Virus record (IMG/VR): IMGVR_UViG_2602041549_000012
Length of the DNA: 34,341 nt
Direction: 5' to 3' (one strand)
From: a virus
Lineage: Duplodnaviria; Heunggongvirae; Uroviricota; Caudoviricetes
Shown here piece after piece: positions 3,894 through 34,341 of the stretch (position 1 is the stretch's first letter; each line of letters starts with the position of its first letter). The notes under the pieces were generated by a model. That model saw only the letters and a program-made list of their open reading frames with translations. It was not told the origin of the DNA and searched no databases. The position numbers were made by a program, and so were the translations under genes.

Positions 3894-4165
3894 GTATTCG
3901 TATTGAAATTGGCGAACGTTATGTCGTTACCAGTGACAGCTTTCAGTTTATTCTCCACGAGAAAAAGAGAGCTGAAAGCGGTAAAAACGCCGGTCAGGAA
4001 TGGCTGGCGGTGGTTGGTTATTACCCGAAATTAAGCCAGCTTGTTTCCGGTCTGATGCATCACGATATTCTGACCGGAAGCGCAAAGTCTTTTGCTGATT
4101 TAAACGCGCAGGTTGAGCAACTCAGCAAGCGTTGTTCAGAGGCTTTTGGCTCATATGGCCGTTAA
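3890..4165 (+). CDS. P2 orf83-like hypothetical protein (91 aa)
   Basis: Position and size. ATGA-type overlap with orf82. Confidence 0.55.
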   Translation: MSIRIEIGERYVVTSDSFQFILHEKKRAESGKNAGQEWLAVVGYYPKLSQLVSGLMHHDILTGSAKSFADLNAQVEQLSKRCSEAFGSYGR

Positions 4166-6431
4166 AGCCTCCGGGCGTTTTGTCCCTCCGTCAGCATTTG
4201 CCGCAGGCACCGGTGAGACGTTTACCGGTGCTTATGCATGGAACGCGCCACGCGAGGCCGTCGGGCGCGAAAGACCCCTTACACGTGACGAGATGCGTCA
4301 GGTGCAAGGTGTTTTATCCACGATTAACCGCCTGCCTTACTTTTTGCGCTCGCTGTTTACTTCACGCTATGACTACATCAGGCGCAATAAAAGCCCGGTG
4401 CACGGGTTTTATTTCCTCACATCCACTTTTCAGCGTCGTTTATGGCCGCGCATTGAGCGCGTGAATCAGCGCCATGAAATGAACACCGATGCGTCGTTGC
4501 TGTTTCTGGCAGAGCGCGACCAGTATGCGCGCCTGCCGGGAATGAATGACAAGGAGCTGAAAAAGTTTGCTGCCCGTATCTCATCGCAGCTTTTCATGAT
4601 GTATGAGGAACTCTGCGATGCCTGGGTGGATGCGCATGGCGAGAAAGAATCGCTGTTTACGGATGAGGCGCAGGCTCACCTCTATGGTCATGTTGCTGGC
4701 GCTGCACGTGCTTTCAATATTTCCCCTCTCTACTGGAAAAAATACCGTAAAGGACAGATGACCACGAGGCAGGCATATTCTGCCATTGCCCGTCTGTTTA
4801 ACGATGAGTGGTGGACTCATCAGCTTAAAGGCCAGCGTATGCGCTGGCATGAGGCGTTACTGATAGCTGTCGGGGAGGTCAATAAAGACCGTTCTCCTTA
4901 TGCCAGTAAACATGCCATTCGGGATGTGCGTGCGCGCCGCCAGGCAAATCTGGAATTTCTTAAATCGTGTGACCTTGAAAACAGGGAAACCGGCGAGCGC
5001 ATCGACCTTATCAGTAAGGTGATGGGCAGTATTTCTAATCCTGAAATTCGCCGGATGGAGCTGATGAACACCATTGCCGGTATTGAGCGTTACGCCGCCT
5101 CAGAGGGTGATGTGGGGATGTTTATCACGCTTACCGCGCCGTCAAAGTATCACCCGACACGTCAGGTTGGAAAAGGCGAAAATAAAACCGTCCAGCTTAA
5201 TCACGGCTGGAATGATGAGGCATTTAATCCAAAGGATGCGCAGCGTTATCTCTGCCGTATCTGGAGCCTGATGCGCACGGCATTCAAGGATAATGATTTA
5301 CAGGTCTACGGTTTGCGAGTCGTCGAGCCACACCACGACGGAACGCCGCACTGGCATATGATGCTTTTTTGTAATCCACGCCAGCGTAACCAGATTATCG
5401 AAATCATGCATCGCTATGCGCTCAAAGAGGATGGCGACGAAAGAGGAGCCGCGCGAAACCGTTTTCAGGCAAAACACCTTAACCGGGGCGGTGCTGCGGG
5501 ATATATCGCGAAATACATTTCAAAAAATATCGACGGCTATGCACTGGATGGTCAGCTCGATAACGATACCGGCAGACCGCTGAAAGATACTGCGGCGGCT
5601 GTTACCGCATGGGCGTCAACGTGGCGCATCCCGCAATTTAAAACGGTTGGCCTGCCGACAATGGGAGCTTACCGTGAGCTACGTAAATTGCCTCGCGGCG
5701 TCAGCATTGCTGATGAATTTGACGAACGCGTGGAGGCTGCACGCGCCGCCGCAGACAGTGGCGATTTTGCGCTGTATATCAGCGCGCAGGGCGGGGCAAA
5801 TGTCCCGCGCGATTGTCAGACTGTCAGGGTCGCCCGTAGCCCGTCGGATGACGTTAACGAATACGAGGAAGAAGTCGAGAGAGTGGTCGGCATTTACGCG
5901 CCGCATCTCGGCGCGCGTCATATTCATATCACCAGAACGACGGACTGGCGCATTGTGCCGAAAGTGCCGGTCGTTGAGCCTTTGACTTTAAAAAGCGGCA
6001 TCGCCGCGCCTCGGAGTCCTGTCAATAACTGTGGAAAGCTCACCGGTAGTGATGCTTCGTTACCGGCTCCCACACCTTCTGAGCACGCCGCCGCAGTGCT
6101 TAATCTGGTTGATGACGGTGTTATCGAATGGAATGACCAGGAGGTCGTGAGGGCGCTCAGGGGCGAATTAAAACACGACCTGAGAACACCAAACCGTCAG
6201 CAAAGAAGCGGAAGCCCGTTAAAACCGCATGAAATAGCGCCATCGGCCAGACTGACCCGGTCGGAACGAATGCAAATTACCCGTATCCGCGTTGACCTTG
6301 CTCAGAACGGTATCAGGCCGCAGCGATGGGAGCTTGAGGCGCTGGCGCGTGGGGCAACCGTAAATTATGATGGGAAAAAATTCACGTATCCGGTTGCTGA
6401 TGAGTGGCCGGGGTTCTCGTTACCCATTTGA
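4155..6431 (+). CDS. A: Replication initiator A (rolling-circle nickase)
   Basis: Large ORF at the P2 A position. Contains the HWHMMLF region, consistent with rolling-circle initiator HUH/tyrosine motifs. The track start at 4113 is TTG, so ATG 4155 (MAVKASGRF) is preferred. Confidence 0.85.
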   Translation: MAVKASGRFVPPSAFAAGTGETFTGAYAWNAPREAVGRERPLTRDEMRQVQGVLSTINRLPYFLRSLFTSRYDYIRRNKSPVHGFYFLTSTFQRRLWPRIERVNQRHEMNTDASLLFLAERDQYARLPGMNDKELKKFAARISSQLFMMYEELCDAWVDAHGEKESLFTDEAQAHLYGHVAGAARAFNISPLYWKKYRKGQMTTRQAYSAIARLFNDEWWTHQLKGQRMRWHEALLIAVGEVNKDRSPYASKHAIRDVRARRQANLEFLKSCDLENRETGERIDLISKVMGSISNPEIRRMELMNTIAGIERYAASEGDVGMFITLTAPSKYHPTRQVGKGENKTVQLNHGWNDEAFNPKDAQRYLCRIWSLMRTAFKDNDLQVYGLRVVEPHHDGTPHWHMMLFCNPRQRNQIIEIMHRYALKEDGDERGAARNRFQAKHLNRGGAAGYIAKYISKNIDGYALDGQLDNDTGRPLKDTAAAVTAWASTWRIPQFKTVGLPTMGAYRELRKLPRGVSIADEFDERVEAARAAADSGDFALYISAQGGANVPRDCQTVRVARSPSDDVNEYEEEVERVVGIYAPHLGARHIHITRTTDWRIVPKVPVVEPLTLKSGIAAPRSPVNNCGKLTGSDASLPAPTPSEHAAAVLNLVDDGVIEWNDQEVVRALRGELKHDLRTPNRQQRSGSPLKPHEIAPSARLTRSERMQITRIRVDLAQNGIRPQRWELEALARGATVNYDGKKFTYPVADEWPGFSLPI

Positions 6432-6691
6432 GTAAAAACACAACGTGATTTGATATGGCATTGAATGGCTTATGCGGAGCAGTTATGGGGCAGCAGAAGG
6501 TCAATAGCATGCTGAATTAGAAGGCTAAATGCTATTGAGTGACTAGCATGTCGGTAAGGACAGCCGTTTGATCCGGGTCATAAAAGGCCATCCATTTAGT
6601 CTAATAAAATCATTGCGGGTAACCTTATGTCGACGCATAATTCGTCTTGAGCGAAGTCTTGTCAGTCTTTCATCGTATTGATGATGGGCGC

Positions 6692-6721
6692 AAAAAAACC
6701 ACCCTGGCAGGTGGTTTTTTT
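6692..6721. terminator. Bidirectional rho-independent terminator (A7-hairpin-T7)
   Basis: aaaaaaa-CCACCctggcaGGTGG-ttttttt. The hairpin is flanked by an A-run and a T-run, so it can terminate transcripts on both strands. Confidence 0.55.
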
Positions 6722-6733
6722 GTTTGAAGCATA

Positions 6734-6847
6734 TTAAAGCATAATGCTGACATTGATATTACTGACGTTTACTGACAAACCACTCGGACTACCGTTTGGA
6801 TAGCCAAAGAGGGCCAGAACGAGAATGCAGTAATAGCATTTCTTCAT
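6734..6847 (-). CDS. Small hydrophobic peptide (37 aa), candidate type I toxin-like or membrane peptide
   Basis: ATG at 6847 is preceded by AGGAGG with 4-nt spacing. The peptide MKKCYYCILVLALFGY... has a hydrophobic N-terminus. The stop is followed immediately by the 6692-6721 terminator. Confidence 0.35.
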   Translation of the reverse strand: MKKCYYCILVLALFGYPNGSPSGLSVNVSNINVSIML

Positions 6848-7325
6848 ATTGCCTCCTGTAAGTAGAGGGCAACTTCCACCGGTATATGCGCTTCTTAGGT
6901 GGAATGACTTTTGAGCGAAGTCTTGCCCTGAAATAATGCTCTGTTTAAACGCAAAGTGATTTGGCATATCACCGAACAGAGAGCCGGAAAAACACAACAT
7001 ATAGTATGTCGTTGTTTCTAGACATACATTCTATGTTGTGTAACAAGGGCTTTGCATTAAACATGTTTGAGATTTTATTGATGTAGCTCAAAGTAAAAAA
7101 CAGAGACTACGGATGATAAGGTCTTGAAAGCAATGTAAATTTTTTAAAGTTGCCAATTGCTTAAAAATGTACAGTTGCGGTATGGCGTACTTAAAAAGCT
7201 ATGCATGCAACAAGTGAATGTTTTTGCATGCGTTGGGGATGTCCGTTCAGGCTGCGTGCGGTCAGGACTGGTGCGGATCCATAGTATCTATGCAACTGCA
7301 TTAAAACCGCCCCGTGAAGCGGGCG

Positions 7326-7344
7326 GGCGAGGCGGGGAAAGCAC
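7326..7344. other. cos: Putative cos site (19-nt cohesive end, GGCGAGGCGGGGAAAGCAC)
   Basis: Exact match to the P2 cohesive-end sequence as I recall it. Sits in a GC-rich island flanked by AT-rich DNA, between A and Q as expected for a prophage. Confidence 0.6.
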
Positions 7345-7380
7345 CGCGCGTAAGATAAACAGAAGAGCGAAGGATTATGG

Positions 7381-7409
7381 TTGAGTATTTGTGTTTTTGT
7401 ACATATGAT
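7381..7409 (+). promoter_or_regulatory. Putative sigma70 promoter for the cargo operon
   Basis: TTGAGT, 17-bp spacer, TATGAT. AAAGGAG RBS at 7440-7446, ahead of the ATG at 7451. Confidence 0.4.
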
Positions 7410-7450
7410 AAAAAGGTGTTTACGCTTAAAAACACATCAAAGGAGATGAT

Positions 7451-8752
7451 ATGGAAAATATAAAGATTGATAAGTTTCTCACTATTCAAAAAGTTGATAT
7501 TCCTCTTAAGAAAGTGAATATATTTATTGGGCCTCAGGCACAGGGGAAAAGTGTCATTGCAAAGCTAATAAAATATTTTAAAGATTACCCTATGGATATA
7601 CTACGAGCTTCAACAGAGGGTAAAACTAAAAGAGATATATTGAAGGAGCAAAAGAATAAGTTTAGTAAAATTTTCCCTCAGCAGTATTGGGCTGATGATG
7701 AGTTTTTTATTGAGTATAGTAATAAGCACTATTGGGTGCGGATTACTAATCGAAAAGATAGCAAAGGGTCATTGAAAATAACCCTTTCTGAGAATTTAAC
7801 GAAGACGATTGCTAAACTTCGTTTGATTGTACGAAAGGATTTAGATGAAAATATTGAGAATTCACTTGCAGAAAGCGTTACGAGAAGACGTAAACGCGGA
7901 ATTGAACATGAATTGCGAGTATGTCTTTCTCTAGGATTGTTTTCAGAACCAGAAACAAAGCTTGAAAGTGTTTTTTATATCCCCGCAGGGCGCTCTTTTT
8001 TTGCTAACTTGCAAAAAAATGTGTTTTCATTTTTATCCAGTAGTATAGAAATTGACTACTTTTTGACAGAGTTTGGTTCTCTGTATGAACAAACAAAAAA
8101 ATTATTTAGCCAAGATTACATGATTAGGATGCTTAGGGGGGCTGTGCCTCAACATGTTAATAAGCTTGTGGAGGAGTTGATTTGCGGAAAATATATAACA
8201 GAAAAGGGTGAGGATTTTATTCGTCATGCTGCTAAAAAGACGAATCTTAACAACTCGAGCTCAGGGCAGCAAGAAGCGTTACCAATGGCTTTAATGTTAT
8301 CCTCATGGCCGTATTTACAGTCTATGACTAGTAAGAGTTTTATTATTGAGGAGCCGGAGGCTCATCTGTTTCCTTCTGCCCAAGCAAAAGTTGTATCTTT
8401 AATAGCCTCAGCGTATAACCAAGCAGAAAGCTATTGTAGCTATACAATAACAACACATAGCCCATATATTCTAAGTGCCTTCAATAATTTGATTCAAGCA
8501 GGTAATGCATTGAAGTGTATTAAGGGCAAGAATAATGCCGATATCGAACGCTTATATAAGCTTGTTCCAGAGTCTCAAATTATTGATTTTGATGATGTGA
8601 CAGCTTATATGGTTAATGCTGGGAAAGTGACGGAAATACTGGATTCCGAACTAAATATATTAGATGCGAATGAAATAGATAGGATTTCCTCTATTTTTTC
8701 AGAGACTTTTGATGCATTGATTGATATCGAATATTCGGCTACTGTGAATTAG
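7451..8752 (+). CDS. Cargo gene 1: ABC-type (AAA_21/AAA_15-like) ATPase, 433 aa
   Basis: Walker A GPQAQGKS near the N-terminus, signature-like SSGQQ, Walker B FIIEEPEAHL, H-loop TTHSP. Strongly AT-rich compared with the phage backbone. Confidence 0.8.
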   Translation: MENIKIDKFLTIQKVDIPLKKVNIFIGPQAQGKSVIAKLIKYFKDYPMDILRASTEGKTKRDILKEQKNKFSKIFPQQYWADDEFFIEYSNKHYWVRITNRKDSKGSLKITLSENLTKTIAKLRLIVRKDLDENIENSLAESVTRRRKRGIEHELRVCLSLGLFSEPETKLESVFYIPAGRSFFANLQKNVFSFLSSSIEIDYFLTEFGSLYEQTKKLFSQDYMIRMLRGAVPQHVNKLVEELICGKYITEKGEDFIRHAAKKTNLNNSSSGQQEALPMALMLSSWPYLQSMTSKSFIIEEPEAHLFPSAQAKVVSLIASAYNQAESYCSYTITTHSPYILSAFNNLIQAGNALKCIKGKNNADIERLYKLVPESQIIDFDDVTAYMVNAGKVTEILDSELNILDANEIDRISSIFSETFDALIDIEYSATVN

Positions 8753-8760
8753 GTGATTGA

Positions 8761-9198
8761 ATGTGTAAAAATTGCAAAGGAAAAACAAAAAATAAAATCA
8801 TTGTGCTATCTGATAAAGGAACGTCAACGCAATTGTCAGTCATAAATGATAATGAGTTGGAGGTTGAGCATAAGTTAATAGATGGTTGCGCTATTGTTGT
8901 TGGGGAGCGGTGTGATCATTATTTGAAGATTTATAACAATCAGGATGTTTCACATCTTTTTGTTGAACTTAAAGGAAGTGATGTTGAAAAAGCTGTTAAA
9001 CAGATAGTGACAACTTTAAAGTCAGGTGTGATTAATGTAGGTGCTAAAGAAAAAAAACATGGTGCTATTGTTAGCACTAGGAATCCGCTAAACTCAACAG
9101 AAACCAATAAGTTAAAGAAGAAAATTCTTTTGAGTGACGGAGTGAATTTGCATTTCTATAAAATGAAGGCGCAGCAAAAAATAACTTCTTTTACATGA
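8761..9198 (+). CDS. Cargo gene 2: small partner protein (145 aa), possible PD-(D/E)xK-like nuclease
   Basis: Starts 9 nt after the gene 1 stop, with an AGGTGA RBS. Has an N-terminal CxxC and a D...hhhhELK arrangement (GERCDHYL...HLFVELKG). Lys-rich and AT-rich. Confidence 0.65.
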   Translation: MCKNCKGKTKNKIIVLSDKGTSTQLSVINDNELEVEHKLIDGCAIVVGERCDHYLKIYNNQDVSHLFVELKGSDVEKAVKQIVTTLKSGVINVGAKEKKHGAIVSTRNPLNSTETNKLKKKILLSDGVNLHFYKMKAQQKITSFT

Positions 9199-9211
9199 AG
9201 TGTTCTCTTGT

Positions 9212-9236
9212 ACAGGCATGCATTTGCATGCCTGTC
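9212..9236. terminator. Perfect 11-bp-stem hairpin downstream of the cargo operon
   Basis: ACAGGCATGCA-ttt-TGCATGCCTGT, 14 nt after the gene 2 stop. No clean T-run, so it is a weak terminator call. Confidence 0.4.
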
Positions 9237-9301
9237 GTGTAATCTTTTACACTATATTTGTGTTGGTTCTAATCTTGTTATGTGTTTGTTTCGGTGATGG
9301 A

Positions 9302-10321
9302 TCATAATGAATAAGTTCGAAAGCGAAATACATCTTCGCCAACCCAACAGTTAATTTCTTTACATCGCTCTTGGAGGAACGTTAGCTCGTTGCGTACAAA
9401 GACTTGTGCTGCTTTTGTTACATCTCCAAATCCTCCTGTGTTGTTGGGCATCATTCCTATCATTTGGGGAGGCACGCGATGAGCACTCATTAGATCTTCA
9501 GCACTTGCTTTTTTGATATTAAAAAAATCGTCCTTCGTTGCCACTTCACTGAGCGGGATAATTTTAATGCCGTCGGCTTTCCCCTGCGGGGCATAGAGAA
9601 ACAGATTTTTAAAGTTATTGCGGCCTTTCGACTTAACCATGTTTTCGCGAAGCATTTCGATATCGTTGCGATCCTGCACGGCATCGGTGACGTACATGAT
9701 GTATCCGGCATGTGCGCCATTTTCGTAATACTTGCGGCGGAACAGCGTGGCTGATTCATTCAGCCAGGCAGAGTTAAGGGCGCTGAGATACTCCGGCAGG
9801 CCGTACAGCTCCTGATTAATATCCGGCTCCAGCAGGTGAAACACGGAGCCGGGCGCGAAGGCTGTCGGCTCGTTGAAGGACGGCACCCACCAGTAAACAT
9901 CCTCTTCCACACCACGGCGGGTATATTTTGCCGGTGAGGTTTCCAGTCTGATGACCTTACCGGTGGTGCTGTAACGCTTTTCCAGAAATGCATTACCGAA
10001 TACCAGAAAATCCAGCACAAAGCGGCTGAAATCCTGTTGCGAAAGCCACGGATGCGGGATAAATGTCGAGGCCAGAATATTACGTTTGACGTAAATCGGT
10101 GAGCTGTGATGCACGGCAGCACGCAGGCTTTTTGCCAGACCGGTAAAGCTGACCGGTGGCTCATACCATCTGCCGTTACTGATGCACTCGACGTAATCCA
10201 GAATGTCACGCCGGTCGAGTACCGGCACCGGCTCACCAAAGGTGAATGCCTCCATTTTCGGGGCGCTGGCGGTCAATGTTTTCACCGCTGGCTGCGGTGT
10301 TTTCCCTTTTTTCTTGCTCAT
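9302..10321 (-). CDS. Q: Portal protein Q
   Basis: 339 aa, first gene after cos on the minus strand. Start overlaps the P stop (TGATG). Synteny with the P2 Q-P pair. Confidence 0.85.
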   Translation of the reverse strand: MSKKKGKTPQPAVKTLTASAPKMEAFTFGEPVPVLDRRDILDYVECISNGRWYEPPVSFTGLAKSLRAAVHHSSPIYVKRNILASTFIPHPWLSQQDFSRFVLDFLVFGNAFLEKRYSTTGKVIRLETSPAKYTRRGVEEDVYWWVPSFNEPTAFAPGSVFHLLEPDINQELYGLPEYLSALNSAWLNESATLFRRKYYENGAHAGYIMYVTDAVQDRNDIEMLRENMVKSKGRNNFKNLFLYAPQGKADGIKIIPLSEVATKDDFFNIKKASAEDLMSAHRVPPQMIGMMPNNTGGFGDVTKAAQVFVRNELTFLQERCKEINCWVGEDVFRFRTYSL

Positions 10322-12093
10322 CAGTAAAACTCCAGAATGGTGGATGTCAGCGGGGTGCTGATACCGGCGGTGAGTGGCTCATTTAACAGGGCGTGCATGG
10401 TCGCCCAGGCGAGGTCGGCGTGGCTGGCTTCCTCGCTGCGGCTGGCCTCATAGGTGGCGCTGCGTCCGCTGCTGGTCATGGTCTTGCGGATAGCCATAAA
10501 CGAGCTGGTGATGTCGGTGGCGCTGACGTCATATTCCAGACAGCCACGGCGAATAACGTCTTTTGCCTTGAGCACCATTGCGGTTTTCATTTCCGGCGTG
10601 TAGCGGATATCGCGCGCGGCGGGATAGAACGAGCGCACGAGCTGGAACACGCCGACACCGAGGCCGGTGGCATCAATACCGATGTATTCGACGTTGTATT
10701 TTTCGGTGAGTTTGCGGATGGATTCCGCCTGGGTGGCAAAGTCCATGCCTTTCCACTGGTGACGCTCAAGTATTCTGAATTTGCCACCGGCCACCACCGG
10801 CGGTGCCAGTACCACGCATCCGGCGCTGTCGCCACGGTGTGACGGGTCGTAACCAATCCATACCGGGCGGGAGCCGAACGGATTGGCGGCAAACGGCGCA
10901 TAGTCTTCCCATTCTTCCAGCGTGTCGACCATGCAGCGTTGCAGCTCCTCGAACGGGAACACCGACGCCTTGTCGTCAACAAATTCACACATGAACAGGT
11001 TTTTAAAATCGTCGGCGCTGTTTTCACGTTTGAGCTGCTCAATGTCGAACAGCGTGCAGCCGCCTTTCAGGGCGTCCTCAATGGTGACAATCTGCCGCCA
11101 CTGGCCGTCCGCACAGAGAAGACCTCCGGCAAGGGCGTTATGACTGACGTCGATTTCCACGCGTTCGGCGGCGCTGGCGCGTCCCCGGTTGAACAGTTCA
11201 CCCGACCAGAACGGGTAGGCGTCGTGCGCCAGCGTGGACGGGGTGGAGAAATAGGTCGAGCGCAGGTGACTCTGTGAGGCCATACCTGATGCCACCTTAC
11301 GCAGTACCTGAAAATTCGGGATCCAGAAAATCTCGTCGACGTACAGGTCGCCGTTATGGCTCTGTGCGGTGTTGGAGTTGGTGCCGAGAAAAATCAGTTT
11401 TGCGCCGTTATTGCCCAGGACAATCGGGTCACCGGTCAGGTCAACGTCAACCAGCCGGGCAAAGGCGATGATGTATTCGCGGAACACATACGCCTGCGTT
11501 TTACTGGCCGACAGAAAAATCTGGTTATGACCGGTTTTCAGGGCGCGCAGCAGCGCCTCGCGGGAAAAATAAAACGTCGCGCCAATCTGGCGGGATTTCA
11601 GGATATCGCGGATGCGGTGCTCAAGCCCGGCGCGATACCAGTGCAACTGATAGTCGAAAGACTGCTCAAAGAAAATCTGCTCCAGCTTTTCGATGGCCTC
11701 GTCACTGAAAAAATTCTTTTTCGGTTTGCGACGCCCGCCTTTGTTGCGGTTAGCGACGTTTGGATTAAGGTCTGCCTCGTTGCCGGTCTGACTGTAGCGG
11801 TTTACCCGTGCCAGTCGTTCAATCTGGCGTCCCAGCAGGTCAATTTCCTTGAAGTCACCGCCGGTTTTCTGCGGTTTGATGATGAGCTGGGTCAGCCGCG
11901 CTTCCAGACTCATTTCGACACGGCTGATGGGGGCAACGCTGTCCCAGCCGTCGCGCTGTTTCCAGCTCTGCACCGTCGGGCGTTTCATCTGCAACATGGC
12001 GGCAATCTGCGGCACGGAAAATCCCTGCCAGTACAGCAGCGCCGCCTGACGACGCGGGTCGTGTAAAAGAGTGGTGTCTGTGGTGATGGTCAT
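10321..12093 (-). CDS. P: Terminase large subunit (ATPase/nuclease) P
   Basis: 590 aa from the internal ATG (MTITTD...), which is the P2 P length as I recall. Divergent from O. Confidence 0.85.
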   Translation of the reverse strand: MTITTDTTLLHDPRRQAALLYWQGFSVPQIAAMLQMKRPTVQSWKQRDGWDSVAPISRVEMSLEARLTQLIIKPQKTGGDFKEIDLLGRQIERLARVNRYSQTGNEADLNPNVANRNKGGRRKPKKNFFSDEAIEKLEQIFFEQSFDYQLHWYRAGLEHRIRDILKSRQIGATFYFSREALLRALKTGHNQIFLSASKTQAYVFREYIIAFARLVDVDLTGDPIVLGNNGAKLIFLGTNSNTAQSHNGDLYVDEIFWIPNFQVLRKVASGMASQSHLRSTYFSTPSTLAHDAYPFWSGELFNRGRASAAERVEIDVSHNALAGGLLCADGQWRQIVTIEDALKGGCTLFDIEQLKRENSADDFKNLFMCEFVDDKASVFPFEELQRCMVDTLEEWEDYAPFAANPFGSRPVWIGYDPSHRGDSAGCVVLAPPVVAGGKFRILERHQWKGMDFATQAESIRKLTEKYNVEYIGIDATGLGVGVFQLVRSFYPAARDIRYTPEMKTAMVLKAKDVIRRGCLEYDVSATDITSSFMAIRKTMTSSGRSATYEASRSEEASHADLAWATMHALLNEPLTAGISTPLTSTILEFY

Positions 12094-12266
12094 GAATACC
12101 TCGCCGTGATGAATACACGGCAAGGCTACTGAGTCGCGTCCCGCGATTCGCTAAGGTGCTGTTGTGTCAGTGATAAGCCATCCGGGACTGATGGCGGAGG
12201 ATGCGCATCGTCGGGAAACTGATGCCGACATGTGACTCCTCTAATCACTATTCAGGACTCCTGACA

Positions 12267-18538: not shown

Positions 18539-19324
18539 TTATGAGTGATTTTTATTTGATGCTTTGTATTCTAAAACCTTCTTATTGGCGTAAAAGAATT
18601 TTGTATATGACAGGAATATAACCAGACCTGAAGTGAAATAGACGAGGGATAGTATTAATAATGCTTTTTTGTGACTGTTATTATCTTTAATCTCCTGGCT
18701 TAACCATTCGGAGTCCTCCTCGTTTAGCTGTAAGAGCTTATTGCAGGCGATCTCAGGAAGTGTGTCTTTTATAAATACGTTTTGCAGTCTCTTGCAATCG
18801 GCAAGGGTATAAGTTTTATTAAATTCAACTGCTTTATTTTTGAAGGATAAAAGAACTTTGTCACTATAAACATAGTACATCATGTTTTTATATGGTATGC
18901 CTATGGCATCCCTTACTATAACGGATTGTTCGTTGTGTATGTAACATGCGAGGAGAATGTAAAAAATACAGGCCAGAATTACAATTATTGTTTTAATTAT
19001 GTGTGGTGGTTTTGTTATGTCACCCCAGATGCGAGTAAGGAAAAAATACGATGTTTTTAGTTTTCCATCAATCAGTCCCTGCTGTATCATTCTCACATTT
19101 TCAATGCCTGATACATTGATTCCGTTAATTATTTTAAATAGTTGAATGTCGCGCCACTCGCGGTCAAGTCTTTTTAATTTTTTGTCTGAATATCCAAAAT
19201 TGAAATAATGTGCAATAAGCCTCATAAGGTTACTTTTACCAAAGCTAAAAAATGCTAATACTGCAAAGCTACAAAGGAAAAAAACGATTAGCCCCCACAC
19301 ATTAGTCACATTATAGCTGACCAT
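18539..19324 (-). CDS. AT-rich cargo membrane protein (261 aa, about 3 TM helices) at the S/V junction
   Basis: Opposite strand to the late genes. AAGGAG RBS. Hydrophobic helices at the N-terminus, middle and C-terminus. Strongly AT-rich. Occupies the position of P2 orf30. Confidence 0.7.
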   Translation of the reverse strand: MVSYNVTNVWGLIVFFLCSFAVLAFFSFGKSNLMRLIAHYFNFGYSDKKLKRLDREWRDIQLFKIINGINVSGIENVRMIQQGLIDGKLKTSYFFLTRIWGDITKPPHIIKTIIVILACIFYILLACYIHNEQSVIVRDAIGIPYKNMMYYVYSDKVLLSFKNKAVEFNKTYTLADCKRLQNVFIKDTLPEIACNKLLQLNEEDSEWLSQEIKDNNSHKKALLILSLVYFTSGLVIFLSYTKFFYANKKVLEYKASNKNHS

Positions 19325-24840: not shown

Positions 24841-25701
24841 TCATTGTTTTGTATTCTTTAATAACTCTAAGTCGATAACAAGTATACGTGTTGGAATCGG
24901 GGCTTTATTTGGGTACAAACGTTCTCTTTTCAAATTAAAAGCCTCGCCGCTTTTAAATAACCTAGAAATGTCATGACCTTTAAATACATAATCTAAGTTT
25001 GCATCGTTTTCGTGAATTTGATGCAACTCTATTTTTTCATTCTCGGGCACTATGACGTTTGAGTATGATAGAGAAATCACATCTGGCGGTTGTTGTGGTG
25101 TTGTATTTCTATAAATATATTTACTTCTGGTTCCTATACACTCCAGAAGACAACAAAGCGGGTATGTCGTTCTAACCTTGTGTATTGAATTGAAATTCTT
25201 CCCTCTTTTTTTATGTATTGCACTAACTACCACTTCAAGATTAGCAACAGTAATTCCCATTTTTTTTCTTGATATTGGTCTCTTACAATTCCAATACTCA
25301 TCAAGTTCAGCTTGTTTTGGGTAATTGTAAAAAGCATAGAGTGGTACTGCGTTTGTATCTTTAGCGTACTGCTGTAATATATTATGTTGTAAAATTTTAT
25401 TTTTCCCTACCTCATGCTTTAGCTTTTTATATGAATACTGGTTATGATCCATTTTTTTTGCTTGTATTGCATATCGTACCCAACCAGTTTTCCTGCTCCC
25501 AATCCACCATTCCCAATCTGTTCCTTTTGTTGACTCTTTATCTTTGGTGGTTTTCTTTATAGTCACATAACTATAATCTCGCCTAGCAATCTCTAATAAA
25601 ATTAAATCACTAATTGTTTCTTCACCTATAGATAATCCTAATTTTTTTCCATCATGAAGCAAATCCCAGACATACTCAGAAATATCAGAAAAAACACTCA
25701 T
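24841..25701 (-). CDS. AT-rich cargo protein (286 aa) at the G/FI junction, function unknown
   Basis: Minus strand between G and FI, the position of P2 Z/fun. The track start at 25704 is TTG, with an ATG at 25701. Strongly AT-rich. Possible PD-(D/E)xK-like N-terminal motifs (TDWEWWIG ... YAIQAKK). Confidence 0.65.
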   Translation of the reverse strand: MSVFSDISEYVWDLLHDGKKLGLSIGEETISDLILLEIARRDYSYVTIKKTTKDKESTKGTDWEWWIGSRKTGWVRYAIQAKKMDHNQYSYKKLKHEVGKNKILQHNILQQYAKDTNAVPLYAFYNYPKQAELDEYWNCKRPISRKKMGITVANLEVVVSAIHKKRGKNFNSIHKVRTTYPLCCLLECIGTRSKYIYRNTTPQQPPDVISLSYSNVIVPENEKIELHQIHENDANLDYVFKGHDISRLFKSGEAFNLKRERLYPNKAPIPTRILVIDLELLKNTKQ

Positions 25702-25981
25702 CAACTCAACCTATATAAATGATATATAATTCATGTCTAAATATCGTCTTTGCCACTCAAAACTTTAGGGTGATGAAAAAATATAATGAAGTTCAAAAGG
25801 AACTAAGCGTACGATATCCATAATTATACTCTTTCAGACTTTCTGGATAACCCATCTTGGGAAGAGATTCCGCAAAACGCAAACCAACGTCCGCTCCTCG
25901 CTCAAAACAGGCTGTCAGATTTGATAGCGTTTCGGCTATGTAAATAGTCAGTCGGAAAATAAGTGAGTACAAATCAGGACA

Positions 25982-32979: not shown

Positions 32980-34341
32980 TCACTTACCGTGGGGGTTACG
33001 CGTGGTTTCCCCGGAGAAATTACGCATCAGCAGCGCGTAATTTAGCTCAAGATCCTGCGGCACCGGGAGCCACACAGTATAACCATCGCCTGGTGCTACC
33101 GGCATAGCTTCGCCTTTGGCGTTTTCCATGTGCTCAAGGGTAAAGTTAATGTTGCCTTGCGGCGTCATCAGCTCAAGGCTGTCGCCAACGGAGAATTTAT
33201 TTTTCACCGCTACCGCCGCGAGGTCCCCCTTGCGCTCACCGGTAAACTCACCAACAAACTGCTGGCGGTCAGAAACCGAATAACCGTATTCGTAGTTCTG
33301 ATAATCGTCGTGAGTATGACGACGCAGGAAACCTTCGGTATAGCCACGATGCGCCAGACCTTCCAGAGTTTCCAGCAGGCTGGTATCGAACGGTTTGCCC
33401 GCAGCGGCATCATCGATAGCTTTACGATAAACCTGTGCGGTGCGTGCGCAATAGTAGAAAGATTTAGTACGGCCTTCGATCTTCAGCGAATGCACGCCCA
33501 TTTTGGTCAGGCGTTCTACATGGGCGATGGCGCGCAGATCTTTCGAGTTCATGATGTAAGTGCCGTGCTCATCTTCAAACGCGGTCATATACTCGCCCGG
33601 ACGCTGGGCCTCTTCGATCATAAACACTTTGTCGGTTGGTGCGCCGATACCCAGCGTCGGCTCAACATTTTGCACCGGAATCGGCTCGTACTTGTGTACG
33701 ATGTTGCCAACATCATCTTCTTTCCCTTCCTGGACGTTGTACTCCCAGCGGCAGGCGTTGGTGCAGGTGCCCTGGTTCGGGTCGCGCTTGTTGATATAGC
33801 CAGAGAGCAGGCAGCGACCGGAGTAGGCCATGCACAGCGCGCCGTGAACGAAGATCTCGATCTCCATATCCGGCACCTGATTGCGGATCTCTTCAATCTC
33901 TTCCAGCGACAGCTCGCGAGAGAGGATCACGCGGGTCAGGCCCATTTGCTGCCAGAATTTCACCGTCGCCCAGTTCACGGCGTTAGCCTGCACCGAAAGG
34001 TGGATCGGCATTTCAGGGAAGTGCTCACGCACCAGCATAATCAGCCCTGGATCGGACATAATCAGCGCATCCGGCCCCATTTCCACCACCGGTTTCAGGT
34101 CACGGATAAAGGTTTTCAGCTTGGCGTTGTGCGGTGCAATGTTGACCACGACATAAAACTTTTTCCCCAGCGCGTGGGCTTCATTGATGCCGAGCTGAAG
34201 ATTTTCGTGGTTGAATTCGTTGTTGCGCACACGCAGGGAATAACGCGGCTGGCCCGCATAAACAGCATCTGCGCCATAAGCGAAAGCGTAACGCATATTT
34301 TTCAGCGTTCCCGCCGGGGAAAGGAGTTCCGGTTTAAACAT
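32980..34341 (-). CDS. yegQ: Peptidase U32-family protein YegQ (RlhA-type), 453 aa
   Basis: Full-length ORF reaching the window edge. Sequence recognised as E. coli YegQ. Host flank to the right of attR. Confidence 0.8.
   Translation of the reverse strand: MFKPELLSPAGTLKNMRYAFAYGADAVYAGQPRYSLRVRNNEFNHENLQLGINEAHALGKKFYVVVNIAPHNAKLKTFIRDLKPVVEMGPDALIMSDPGLIMLVREHFPEMPIHLSVQANAVNWATVKFWQQMGLTRVILSRELSLEEIEEIRNQVPDMEIEIFVHGALCMAYSGRCLLSGYINKRDPNQGTCTNACRWEYNVQEGKEDDVGNIVHKYEPIPVQNVEPTLGIGAPTDKVFMIEEAQRPGEYMTAFEDEHGTYIMNSKDLRAIAHVERLTKMGVHSLKIEGRTKSFYYCARTAQVYRKAIDDAAAGKPFDTSLLETLEGLAHRGYTEGFLRRHTHDDYQNYEYGYSVSDRQQFVGEFTGERKGDLAAVAVKNKFSVGDSLELMTPQGNINFTLEHMENAKGEAMPVAPGDGYTVWLPVPQDLELNYALLMRNFSGETTRNPHGK

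What the first reader, a model, noticed from the sequence alone, without database searches (positions are those of the whole stretch)
6432..9301. Remodelled cos-proximal hotspot: tin/old absent, and the cargo sits on the Q side of cos
Seen in sequence: the putative 19-nt cos (7326-7344) lies 895 bp after A. The space where P2 carries orf91/tin/old holds only the small peptide locus, while the roughly 1.9-kb ATPase operon lies between cos and the 3' end of Q. Established knowledge (recalled): in P2, tin and old sit between A and cos, and Q ends close to cos. Inference: in the linear virion genome this cargo would be at the extreme left end, so the insertion happened next to the packaging signal without disrupting it. 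Two GCATGCA-containing hairpins (7206-7232 and 9212-9236) bracket cos plus the cargo and may mark recombination junctions.
Basis: partly seen in the sequence, partly recalled or inferred. Interest (0 to 1): 0.5.

Follow-up and report, generated by a model that had tools for sequence, protein, structure and literature searches.

The report
P2 prophage cos-flanking defence cargo slot
A P2-type prophage carries a two-gene ATPase plus nuclease-like cassette, probably an anti-phage defence, between its DNA-packaging site and its portal gene. This cargo slot and this exact cassette are already on record, so the layout is ordinary for the family.

Summary
The exact P2 19-nt cos lies at 7326-7344, 894 nt after gene A. 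tin and old are absent. A 433-aa AAA_15 ATPase and a 145-aa ORF fill the 1957 nt between cos and the portal gene Q; P2 has 167 nt there.

The layout is not unusual. Cargo sits between cos and Q in 32 of 74 species-representative P2-like prophages and in 6 of 79 E. coli-type viral contigs. It includes Lamassu, Olokun, Avs5 and SIR2 systems. Phage phiCTX, whose record annotates cosL, has the same architecture. The slot was proposed as a hotspot in 1996-1999. Rousset et al. 2022 list this same cassette (99% identical proteins) as P2-hotspot system 81, with 45 occurrences; it does not appear in their table of tested systems.

The hairpins are not junctions. Exchange boundaries lie at the right edge of a roughly 60-bp cos core (7350) and inside the 3' end of Q (9335-9501). 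Hairpin 1 belongs to a TGCAT repeat array kept at fixed distance from cos in P2-like phages and in satellite P4. Hairpin 2 sits where other cassettes carry their terminator.

The 145-aa protein is probably a minimal PD-(D/E)xK nuclease, which suggests an ATPase-controlled nuclease defence. That function is untested.

The parts
4113..6431 (+). Replication gene A (gpA). Left anchor of the A-to-Q variable region.
   Evidence: PF05840 E 2e-123. Homology to other P2-like loci ends 13-18 nt before its stop, or further upstream in some loci.
6432..7291 (.). A-side cargo module in the place of P2 orf91/tin/old. It exchanges independently of the Q-side cassette.
   Evidence: At least 99% identical in many E. 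coli genomes that carry other Q-side content, such as a SIR2 protein. It is absent from the 8 genomes that hold the identical Q-side cassette.
6691..6722 (.). Perfect 13-bp stem with A/T runs on both sides. Likely a bidirectional terminator for the early operon and the small ORF.
   Evidence: Inverted repeat I8 is 100% complementary. Fold energy -18.8 kcal/mol, z -2.9.
6734..6847 (-). 37-aa ORF MKKCYYCILVLALFGYPNGSPSGLSVNVSNINVSIML with an AGGAGG ribosome-binding site.
   Evidence: Read from sequence. Annotated and kept in Salmonella phage MET_P1_103_31. By my count of the alignment, 4 synonymous and 3 replacement codon changes. No family hit.
7199..7236 (.). Part of a TGCAT repeat array at fixed distance from cos (TGCAT at -124 and -101). 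Probably part of the extended packaging signal; in P2 it overlaps the old promoter.
   Evidence: TGCAT/ATGCA density reaches 1-1.8 per 20 nt at -140 to -101 against about 0.05 background in 149 unique loci. Consensus. P4 has TGCAT at -124, -111 and -100. The hairpin itself is weak.
7292..7350 (.). Conserved cos core, including two further TGCA motifs at -36 and -29 and a GC-rich hairpin at 7307-7326. It is the shared anchor between the two cargo slots.
   Evidence: Major-base frequency is 0.8 or more only across about 7292-7350 in 74 divergent loci. Identity to P2 covers this block only. The megablast modules overlap at 7291-7350.
7326..7344 (+). 19-nt cohesive-end sequence (cos), identical to P2.
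7381..7409 (+). Sigma-70-like promoter candidate (TTGAGT-17-TATGAT) for the cargo operon. An AAGGAG ribosome-binding site lies at 7440-7445.
   Evidence: This is weak evidence, because promoter-like sites are not enriched over shuffles. Its position matches the annotated ctx promoter in phiCTX.
7451..8752 (+). 433-aa OLD/ABC-type ATPase without a nuclease domain. Proposed sensor or controller subunit.
   Evidence: AAA_15 8e-21 and AAA_21 4.5e-9. PDC-M29A 2e-31 and AriA 1.7e-25. Walker A GPQAQGKS, signature SSGQQ, Walker B FIIEEPE and H-loop TTHSP read from the translation.
8761..9198 (+). 145-aa partner. Probable minimal PD-(D/E)xK nuclease and proposed effector.
9212..9235 (.).
   Evidence: -17.8 / -19.1 kcal/mol, z -5.3 / -5.9. 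Most other Q-side gaps have a strong hairpin within about 60 nt of the Q stop. P2 tQ and the phiCTX terminators sit at the same place. It has no canonical U-tract and the scan did not call it.
9302..10321 (-). Portal gene Q. Its 3' end, about 9302-9500, is a divergent, lower-GC segment that travels with the cassette.
   Evidence: Identity to P2 Q is 90-100% per 60-nt block for the first 780 nt, 78% in the next block and 53-57% after that. Homology to other loci resumes at 9335, 9471 or 9501. GC is 0.39-0.45 against 0.5-0.6.

Best explanation
The window is an apparently complete P2-like (Peduovirus) prophage. Its variable region between gene A and portal gene Q is split by a conserved cos core of about 60 bp into two cargo slots that exchange independently.

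The A-side slot holds old and tin in P2. Here it holds only a short module with a 37-aa ORF. The Q-side slot is nearly empty in P2. Here it holds a self-contained two-gene cassette with a candidate promoter, an OLD/ABC-type ATPase, a small PD-(D/E)xK-like nuclease and a terminal hairpin. The cassette converges on Q.

The cassette arrived by homologous recombination between related phages, with crossovers in the cos core and inside the 3' end of Q. It was not inserted at the hairpins. Nothing beyond about 6 nt is conserved on the Q side of cos, and the conserved flank (the TGCAT array) lies on the A side. Cargo can therefore sit about 100 nt from the future left end of the virion DNA without harming packaging.

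The cassette most likely acts as a prophage-encoded anti-phage defence in which the ATPase senses or gates and the nuclease is the effector. Its logic would resemble PARIS, Septu or OLD, but the effector differs.

Shown here: the coordinates, the breakpoints, the frequency of filled slots, the conservation and the fold evidence. Inferred: promoter and terminator use, nuclease activity and the defence function.

The confidence of 0.8 applies to the layout and the exchange mechanism. For the defence function alone I would give about 0.5.
For: **Identity and completeness**
- cos, A and Q are identified.
- The late region is collinear with P2 at 96.7% identity from window 9501 onward.

**Independent exchange of the two slots**
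- The A-side module (6432-7350) is at least 99% identical in many E. coli genomes that have other Q-side content.
- The Q-side module (7291-9301) is 100% identical in 8 genomes that have a different A side.
- Breakpoints lie at 7350 and at 9335, 9471 or 9501.
- GC is 0.30-0.41 in the cassette.

**The slot is in general use**
- The Q-to-cos gap is at least 380 nt in 32 of 74 GTDB representatives and 6 of 79 IMG/VR contigs. The default gap is about 169 nt.
- Contents include Lamassu, Olokun, Avs5, a SIR2 (ThsA-like) protein, PD-T4-4/HEC-02-like, PDC-M18, NsnA-like and PDC-S02 proteins.
- Most of these cassettes run from cos towards Q.
- The A side is shorter when the Q side is filled: median 1341 against 2390 nt, p 0.003, and 1347 against 2819 nt, p 0.0006.

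**Precedent**
- phiCTX has cosL, the ctx promoter, ctx, terminators and then the Q homolog.
- PMC5694545 cites Dodd & Egan 1996 and Nakayama 1999 for this position as a proposed hotspot.
- Rousset 2022 lists the cassette as system 81 with 45 occurrences.

**Cassette function**
- The ATPase followed by an ORF of about 140 aa is conserved in an Enterobacter lambdoid prophage, in Pseudomonas and in Nostocales.
- It also sits in chromosomal contexts in Kosakonia, Enterobacter and Serratia.
- The cassette is retained in the degraded prophage of E24377A.
Against: - No experiment shows that this prophage is inducible or that its ends map to 7326.
- The defence role rests on family resemblance and context only. 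The PADLOC match to PDC-M29B is weak (2.8e-4). PDC-M29 is itself only a candidate system.
- Rousset's tables list the cassette but not among tested systems.
- The promoter call is no better than chance, and hairpin 2 lacks a U-tract.
- The survey samples are the best 80 hits per collection, not random draws.
- cos in relatives was located by similarity (up to 3 mismatches), not by end mapping.
- The GCATGC pair in hairpin 2 is oddly specific and is not explained by this account.
Confidence: 0.8

Rival explanations
1. A mobile segment comprising cos plus cargo was inserted, and the two GCATGCA hairpins mark its recombination junctions.
For: - Both hairpins exist. They share a 14-nt direct repeat with 12 of 14 matches, exactly 2000 nt apart (D16).
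- A GCATGC pair no more than 25 nt apart is rare. Across 2.9 Mb of P2-like loci there are 22 at the cos-flank array and only 1 elsewhere, which is this same cassette.
Against: - No relative has a homology breakpoint at 9212-9235. Breakpoints lie at 7350 and inside Q.
- Hairpin 1 sits in an element conserved at the same offset in phages without this cargo and in P4.
- There is no homology beyond the 16 nt of hairpin 2.
- No transposase, integrase or terminal-repeat signature was seen among the ORFs or repeats.
- Homologous cassettes elsewhere end in unrelated hairpins.
Confidence: 0.04
2. Hairpin 2 is a relic or mimic of the cos-flank TGCAT array. It could be left from an ancestor with a duplicated cos flank that later lost one cos core, or it could be a second binding site for the protein that reads the array.
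For: - GCATGCATTTGCATGC equals the array consensus ATGCATGCATT...ATTTGCATGC with the middle repeat removed.
- The motif pair is specific to the array in 153 loci. The chance expectation is about 0.004 per 2-kb cassette, by my estimate.
Against: - The match is only 16 nt. Half of it follows automatically from GCATGC being a palindrome inside a hairpin.
- No flanking homology was found.
- The other 38 Q-side cassettes show no TGCAT enrichment.
- The comparison was made after the similarity had been noticed.
Confidence: 0.12
3. The cassette is not a defence system. It could be a toxin-antitoxin-like addiction module or a DNA-maintenance function that benefits the prophage itself.
For: - AAA_21 is also named 'putative AbiEii toxin, type IV TA'.
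- The cassette sits next to SymE and HicB loci in chromosomal islands.
- Rousset 2022 notes that P2 hotspots also carry partition systems and toxins.
- No functional test is on record.
Against: - The best profile matches are all to defence ATPases: PDC-M29A, AriA, PD-T4-4_A, NsnB, GajA and PtuA.
- The same slot holds bona fide defence systems in relatives.
- ATPase plus nuclease is a recurrent defence design.
Confidence: 0.15
4. The prophage is defective, so the position of the cargo relative to cos has no consequence for a virion.
For: - The only two complete E. coli genomes matching both modules (95% identity overall) include E24377A, whose prophage is degraded with a truncated portal.
- No cultured phage record carries this cassette.
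- All but a few of the closest phage records with a usable start have Q about 200 nt from the record start or end, meaning an empty Q-side slot.
Against: - Here int, A, Q, P, O and the late region are full length and collinear with P2 at 96.7%.
- The cos core and the array are intact.
- phiCTX packages with cargo at the same place.
Confidence: 0.15

Closest known systems
Pseudomonas phage phiCTX left end (cosL, ctx, terminators, Q homolog; AB008550)
   Same: The architecture is the same. The cohesive end is followed within a few hundred nt by a cargo gene with its own promoter, reading towards the portal gene. Then come terminator(s), then the convergent Q and P genes. The record annotates cosL, so the cargo is placed at the extreme left end of the virion DNA.
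   Different: The cargo is a pore-forming cytotoxin (lysogenic conversion for virulence) rather than an ATPase-nuclease pair. The phage belongs to a different genus (Citexvirus) and has a 21-nt cos.
P2 cos-proximal hotspot between gpA and gpQ (Rousset et al. 2022, PMC9122126; de Sousa et al. 2026, PMC13586616)
   Same: Same locus, defined by the same flanking genes. This cassette is listed there as system 81, 'AAA_15/AAA_21', with 45 of 18,150 loci, and under WP_023486639 + WP_040030509, which are the proteins of the 100%-identical E. coli copy.
   Different: The passages I read treat A-to-Q as one hotspot 'adjacent to cos' and do not separate the two sides of cos. The cassette does not appear in their table of tested systems.
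P2 TO region (orf91, tin, old)
   Same: A non-essential lysogenic-conversion region next to cos in the same phage family. Old is also an OLD/ABC-type ATPase nuclease (weak match to OLD structure 6p74).
   Different: It lies on the other side of cos and is transcribed leftward from a promoter overlapping the TGCAT array. Old has its Toprim nuclease in the same polypeptide. Here the ATPase has no nuclease domain and the putative nuclease is a separate 145-aa protein.
Retrons Ec67/Ec86 in 186-related prophages (Dodd & Egan 1996, known here only through its title and citation in PMC5694545)
   Same: [quoted passage not shown] That is the same kind of slot and the same kind of replacement.
   Different: I could not read the paper, so which side of cos is involved and the exact breakpoints are unverified here. 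The cargo is a retron.
PARIS (AriA ATPase + AriB Toprim nuclease), and similarly Septu (PtuA + PtuB HNH)
   Same: A two-gene operon with an AAA_15/AAA_21 ABC-type ATPase followed by a nuclease effector. The AriA profile hits at 1.7e-25 and PtuA at 3.7e-11.
   Different: The partner has no DUF4435/Toprim or HNH domain (no Pfam hit). It is a 145-aa PD-(D/E)xK-like protein. No trigger is known.
PADLOC candidate system PDC-M29
   Same: It is the best PADLOC match for both genes, in the same order (A 2e-31, B 2.8e-4).
   Different: The A match is carried mainly by the C-terminal 130 residues, and the B match is marginal. PDC-M29 is an untested computational candidate, and no paper mentions it.

Membership tests
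P2-like phage (Peduoviridae, Peduovirus) | gpA replication endonuclease, gpQ portal, gpP terminase, and late genes collinear with P2 | tested here: met
   PF05840 2e-123 and PF04860 7e-17. 96.7% identity to P2 over 84% of window 9302-34300.
P2-like phage (Peduoviridae, Peduovirus) | 19-nt cohesive-end sequence inside the conserved cos core of about 55 bp | tested here: met
   Exact 19-mer. The core at 7292-7350 is identical to P2 except for 1 nt. It is conserved across 144-149 loci. Actual cleavage was not tested.
P2 gpA-gpQ defence hotspot (Rousset 2022) | Cargo genes lie between gpA and gpQ of a P2-like prophage | tested here: met
   Coordinates. The cassette is listed in their Table S5 as system 81.
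Left-end (cosL to Q) cargo slot of P2-like phages | Cargo between cos and the 3' end of Q, convergent with Q, separated from it by a hairpin or terminator | tested here: met
   Same layout in phiCTX, in 32 of 74 GTDB representatives and in 6 of 79 IMG/VR contigs.
Transposon-like or site-specific insertion | Junctions at terminal repeats, target duplication, and a recombinase gene | tested here: not met
   Breakpoints lie at the cos core and inside Q. No recombinase ORF. The only flanking repeat is the GCATGC motif, whose left copy is a family-wide cos-flank element.
OLD-family nuclease (P2 Old, GajA) | ABC ATPase fused to a C-terminal Toprim nuclease domain | tested here: not met
   433 aa with AAA_15/AAA_21 only. 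The match to OLD structure 6p74 is limited to residues 296-341, E 0.0057.
PARIS (AriA + AriB) | AriA-type ATPase | tested here: met
   AriA profiles hit at 1.7e-25 and 1.7e-11.
PARIS (AriA + AriB) | AriB partner with a DUF4435/Toprim domain | tested here: not met
   The partner has no Pfam, NCBIfam or PHROG hit and no AriB hit. Its fold and motifs point to PD-(D/E)xK.
PADLOC PDC-M29 | Both component profiles matched by adjacent genes | tested here: inconclusive
   A 2e-31, mainly in the C-terminal third. B 2.8e-4. PADLOC's own system rules were not run.
PD-(D/E)xK nuclease superfamily (145-aa protein) | D ... (D/E)-x-K catalytic motif on consecutive beta strands, followed by a helix | tested here: met
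   D52 lies just before strand 53-59. E69-L70-K71 lies at the end of strand 62-69. Helix 75-88 carries invariant Q81. All are invariant in relatives at 28-70% identity from Enterobacterales, Pseudomonas and Nostocales.
PD-(D/E)xK nuclease superfamily (145-aa protein) | Significant structural similarity to solved members | tested here: inconclusive
PD-(D/E)xK nuclease superfamily (145-aa protein) | Metal-dependent nuclease activity | not testable with these tools
   Needs biochemistry.
Anti-phage defence system | Protection of the host against phage infection | not testable with these tools
   No report found. Listed in Rousset 2022 but absent from their table of evaluated systems.

The most novel reading that the evidence does not exclude
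The ATPase plus 145-aa PD-(D/E)xK-like pair may be an unvalidated, widely spread two-gene anti-phage system. It occurs in Enterobacterales, Pseudomonas and cyanobacteria, and in P2-like and lambdoid prophages as well as chromosomal contexts. An OLD/ABC-type ATPase would control one of the smallest stand-alone nuclease effectors.

Separately, the P2 hotspot may really be two slots split by cos that compete for a shared packaging budget. The packaging signal would lie entirely on the A side, comprising the TGCAT array plus the cos core.
Probability: 0.4. Interest if true: 0.4.

Novelty: already known. Interest (0 to 1): 0.2.

Why it matters
The locus adds little as a genome-architecture finding. 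The cos-to-Q slot has been recognised since the 1990s. The A-to-Q region is the published P2 defence hotspot, and this cassette is already in its catalogue.

Three smaller points have some value:
- **Anatomy of exchange.** The cos core is the fixed point. Crossovers fall at its right edge and inside Q. The two slots trade off in size. This could improve how hotspot cargo is delimited in surveys.
- **A testable cos element.** A TGCAT array sits at the same distance from cos in P2-like phages and in P4.
- **A concrete hypothesis for the cassette.** It is an uncharacterised candidate with a proposed ATPase-gated minimal PD-(D/E)xK nuclease and named catalytic residues to mutate.

Tried and rejected
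- **Rfam.** A scan of 6300-9400 at E up to 1 gave only sub-threshold hits to the 6691-6722 terminator hairpin (RNAI, Phe leader). No RNA family was found.
- **Small proteins.** The 145-aa protein gave no hit in Pfam, NCBIfam or PHROGs. The 37-aa peptide gave none in NCBIfam or PHROGs, and the longer 88-aa reading of that ORF gave none in Pfam or PADLOC.
- **Sequence search of the PDB.** Only one marginal hit for the ATPase (6p74) and nothing meaningful for the small protein.
- **AlphaFold database fold search.** The afdb50 library was unavailable.
- **Literature.** Searches for 'PDC-M29' and for the two WP accessions returned nothing.
- **Cultured phages.** No phage record carries the cassette.
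- **Hairpin 2 as a copy of a cos flank.** A short-word blastn of 9190-9310 and 7345-7450 against all 164 loci then held found nothing beyond the cassette's own copies. Homologous cassettes in other genomes end in unrelated hairpins. The idea is not supported, but the motif coincidence remains.
- **Transposition.** Considered and rejected: no recombinase, no target duplication, and the breakpoints lie elsewhere.
- **Chance match for cos.** Considered and rejected: 0 expected even at 3 mismatches.
- **Unread source.** I could not read Ziermann & Calendar 1990, Dodd & Egan 1996 or Nakayama 1999. They are cited only through PMC5694545 and PMC9122126.

Full report
**What is there**

The window is a P2-like prophage.
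- Gene A (772 aa, PF05840, E 2e-123) ends at 6431.
- The portal gene Q (PF04860) lies at 9302-10321 on the minus strand. Terminase P follows at 10321-12123.
- The P2 cohesive-end 19-mer GGCGAGGCGGGGAAAGCAC occurs once, exactly, at 7326-7344. No match is expected by chance even at three mismatches.
- From 9501 to about 32835 the window is collinear with P2 at 96.7% identity.
- An integrase lies at 583-1596. A host-type U32 peptidase gene begins at 32980.
- The element therefore looks complete and is about the size of P2.

In the P2 reference, cosL is at 1-19 and Q stops at 187, which leaves 167 nt. orf91, tin and old fill the 3255 nt between A and cosR. Here the A-side gap is 894 nt and the Q-side gap is 1957 nt.

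**The cargo**

The Q-side gap contains the following:
- a sigma-70-like site at 7381-7409, which is weak evidence;
- an AAGGAG ribosome-binding site;
- a 433-aa ATPase at 7451-8752;
- eight nt later, a 145-aa ORF at 8761-9198.

The ATPase matches AAA_15 (8e-21) and AAA_21. It also matches defence ATPase profiles: PDC-M29A 2e-31, AriA 1.7e-25, PD-T4-4_A, NsnB, GajA and PtuA. Its Walker A, signature, Walker B and H-loop motifs are intact. It has no Toprim or other nuclease domain.

The 145-aa protein has no family in Pfam, NCBIfam or PHROGs. Its match to PDC-M29B is marginal (2.8e-4). Only 18 relatives were found by word-indexed search.

The gene downstream of distant ATPase homologs is nevertheless the same family. 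This holds in an Enterobacter lambdoid prophage, in a Pseudomonas aeruginosa region and in a Nostocales chromosome. These relatives are 28-32% identical and keep C5, N29, D41, C43, C51, D52, E69, L70, K71, G72, D74, A78, Q81 and P109 invariant.

An AlphaFold2 model has mean pLDDT 87.2 and pTM 0.85. It places D52 just before one strand and E69-x-K71 at the end of the next, followed by a helix carrying Q81.
- Foldseek ranks EcoT38I, FokI and BamHI highest, with weak E-values.

I read the protein as a probable minimal PD-(D/E)xK nuclease. The operon would then be an ATPase-plus-nuclease module of the kind seen in PARIS, Septu and OLD, with a different effector.

Closer homologs of the pair (62-70% identity) sit in non-phage chromosomal contexts:
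- in Kosakonia and Enterobacter, beside SymE, HicB, IS and T6SS genes;
- in Serratia, between housekeeping-type genes.

This mobility as a self-contained pair fits defence cargo. The defence function itself remains untested.

**Is the layout unusual? No.**

I fetched 80 P2-like loci from one-genome-per-species bacterial contigs and 80 from IMG/VR, using the Q protein as query. In each I located cos (up to 3 mismatches), the Q stop and the A stop.
- The default Q-to-cos gap is 149-210 nt.
- It is 380-3962 nt in 32 of 74 species representatives.
- It is 1439-2094 nt in 6 of 79 E. coli-type viral contigs.

These gaps have low GC, mostly 0.32-0.45. In about three quarters of them the genes read from cos towards Q. 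Most are followed by a strong hairpin within about 60 nt of the Q stop.

Their proteins include the following:
- Lamassu: LmuA 3e-74, LmuB 6e-164;
- Olokun: OloA 9e-101, OloB 8e-195;
- Avs5: 3e-61;
- a SIR2 (ThsA-like) protein;
- PD-T4-4/HEC-02-like, PDC-M18, NsnA-like and PDC-S02 proteins.

Phage phiCTX has the same architecture, and its record annotates cosL. It has cosL at 1-21, the ctx promoter, ctx at 362-1222, terminators at 1267-1329, and then the Q homolog on the opposite strand.

[quoted passage not shown] It cites Dodd & Egan 1996 and Nakayama et al. 1999 (PMC5694545).

Rousset et al. 2022 defined the P2 defence hotspot as everything between gpA and gpQ. Their Table S5 lists this cassette as system 81, 'AAA_15/AAA_21', with 45 occurrences. 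It also lists it under WP_023486639 + WP_040030509, the proteins of the 100%-identical E. coli copy. The cassette appears only in that table and not in the table of evaluated systems.

Among 5,426 complete E. coli genomes, 10 carry the cassette. It is always chromosomal and single copy. Nearly all of the best-matching phage records have an empty Q-side slot, and none carries this cassette.

**How it got there**

Megablast of 6432-9301 against E. coli genomes splits the region into two modules that overlap only at 7291-7350.
- The A-side module is at least 99% identical in many genomes whose Q side differs. One example carries a 2.5-kb SIR2 gene.
- The Q-side module is 100% identical in eight genomes whose A side carries a GNAT gene and other ORFs.

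Across 74 divergent loci, conservation is high only from about 7292 to 7350. That block is also the only one shared with P2 near cos. It corresponds to the 55-bp core of Ziermann & Calendar, as cited in PMC5694545.

On the right, the window's Q is 90-100% identical to P2 Q per 60-nt block for its first 780 nt. Identity falls to 78% in the next block and then to 53-57%. Homology to other P2-like loci resumes at 9335, 9471 or 9501, depending on the locus. GC also drops over 9300-9700.

The cassette therefore travels with a variable piece of the 3' end of Q. It was exchanged by homologous recombination with crossovers in the cos core and within Q. No recombinase, target duplication or breakpoint at a hairpin was found.

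When the Q side is filled, the A side is shorter:
- median 1341 against 2390 nt, p 0.003, in the species representatives;
- median 1347 against 2819 nt, p 0.0006, in the IMG/VR contigs.

This is what a shared packaging budget would give.

**The two hairpins**

Hairpin 1 (7203-7231) is weak. It lies 60 nt to the left of the conserved core.

It is part of a TGCAT/ATGCA array that sits at fixed offsets from cos throughout the family.
- Motif density is 1-1.8 per 20 nt at -140 to -101, and 1.6 at -40 to -21.
- The background is about 0.05 in 149 unique loci. The consensus is shown.

P2 has TGCAT at -123, -111 and -101. Satellite P4 shares only its cos region with P2 (Rousset 2022), yet it has TGCAT at -124, -111 and -100 and the same core. 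The window has TGCAT at -124 and -101.

The most economical reading is that the array belongs to the extended packaging signal. In P2 it also overlaps the -35 region of the old-tin promoter. I derived that from the annotated transcript starts, so it is an inference. The array is not a scar of this cargo's arrival.

Hairpin 2 (9212-9235) is strong (z -5.3 and -5.9). It lies inside the cassette, between the convergent operon and Q. This is where P2 has tQ, where phiCTX has its terminators, and close to where other cassettes have a hairpin. Homologous cassettes elsewhere end in unrelated hairpins. It lacks a canonical U-tract, so its role as a terminator rests on position only.

**One oddity remains**

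In 2.9 Mb of P2-like loci, a GCATGC pair no more than 25 nt apart occurs 23 times. Of these, 22 are in the cos-flank array. The other one is this same cassette.

The 16-nt GCATGCATTTGCATGC looks like the array with its middle repeat removed. I found no homology beyond those 16 nt. I estimate the chance expectation at roughly 0.004 per cassette, and the comparison was made after the fact. I leave it as probable coincidence. A relic or mimic of the array is not excluded.

**Verdict**

The inference that cargo sits at the future left end next to an intact packaging signal is sound. The 'remodelled' and 'junction hairpin' readings are not.

This is a known slot of a known hotspot, and it holds an already catalogued but uncharacterised candidate defence cassette. 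What remains of interest is modest:
- a testable ATPase-nuclease hypothesis;
- the two-slot anatomy with crossovers at the cos core and inside Q;
- the TGCAT array shared with P4.

Noticed in passing
window 7199-7301 (TGCAT at 7202, 7225 and 7297; ATGCA at 7290); L173 (P4) 201-230: A TGCAT/ATGCA repeat array lies at fixed offsets from cos (about -124, -111, -101, -36 and -29). It is conserved in 149 unique P2-like loci and in satellite P4, and is absent from the Q side. It is a candidate terminase recognition element of the extended cos site. In P2 it overlaps the old-tin promoter.
   Followed up: partly
window 9212-9235; L085 at +1890 from cos: The cassette's terminal hairpin carries the only GCATGC pair found outside the cos-flank array in 2.9 Mb of P2-like loci. 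It resembles the array with its middle repeat deleted. This is unexplained.
   Followed up: partly
window 6734-6847 (-), with exact 15-nt direct repeats TTGAGCGAAGTCTTG at 6647-6661 and 6911-6925: A 37-aa ORF has a strong AGGAGG ribosome-binding site and a hydrophobic N-terminal half. It is followed by a perfect bidirectional terminator (6691-6722) and bracketed by two exact 15-mers. The ORF is conserved in Salmonella phage MET_P1_103_31 and unannotated in the E. coli RefSeq rows shown. It could be a small membrane peptide or a type I toxin. Its function is unknown.
   Followed up: partly
window 9302-9540 (-): The last 240 nt or so of portal gene Q, encoding about 80 C-terminal residues, are only 53-57% identical to P2 at DNA level, with lower GC and a product 5 residues shorter. 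The portal C-terminus is therefore swapped along with left-end cargo.
   Followed up: partly
loci L005-L164 (survey): The A-side gap is significantly shorter when the Q-side slot is filled (p 0.003 and 0.0006). This fits a shared capacity limit for the two slots flanking cos.
   Followed up: yes
window 18539-19324 (-): A 261-aa ORF lies on the opposite strand between late genes, at the position of the P2 orf30 variable locus. It has no Pfam or PADLOC hit. It may be further cargo.
   Followed up: partly
window 24841-25704 (-): A 287-aa DUF6615 protein lies on the opposite strand after the tail-fibre genes, at the position of the P2 Z/fun variable locus. It has no PADLOC hit. It may be further cargo.
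   Followed up: partly
L180 (E. coli E24377A, NC_009801.1 1005378-1010740): A degraded P2-like prophage, with a truncated portal fused to tail-gene remnants, still keeps intact copies of the ATPase and the 145-aa gene (99.1% identity). This would be expected if the host benefits from the cassette.
   Followed up: no
L174-L179: Homologs of the two-gene cassette at 62-70% identity lie outside prophages. In Kosakonia and Enterobacter they sit in a variable island beside SymE, HicB, IS and T6SS genes. In Serratia marcescens they sit between housekeeping-type genes.
   Followed up: partly
window 7307-7326 (-): A GC-rich hairpin followed by TTTTAA abuts cos on the A side. The scan calls it a minus-strand terminator. 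It lies inside the conserved cos core, so it may serve packaging, transcript insulation or both.
   Followed up: no
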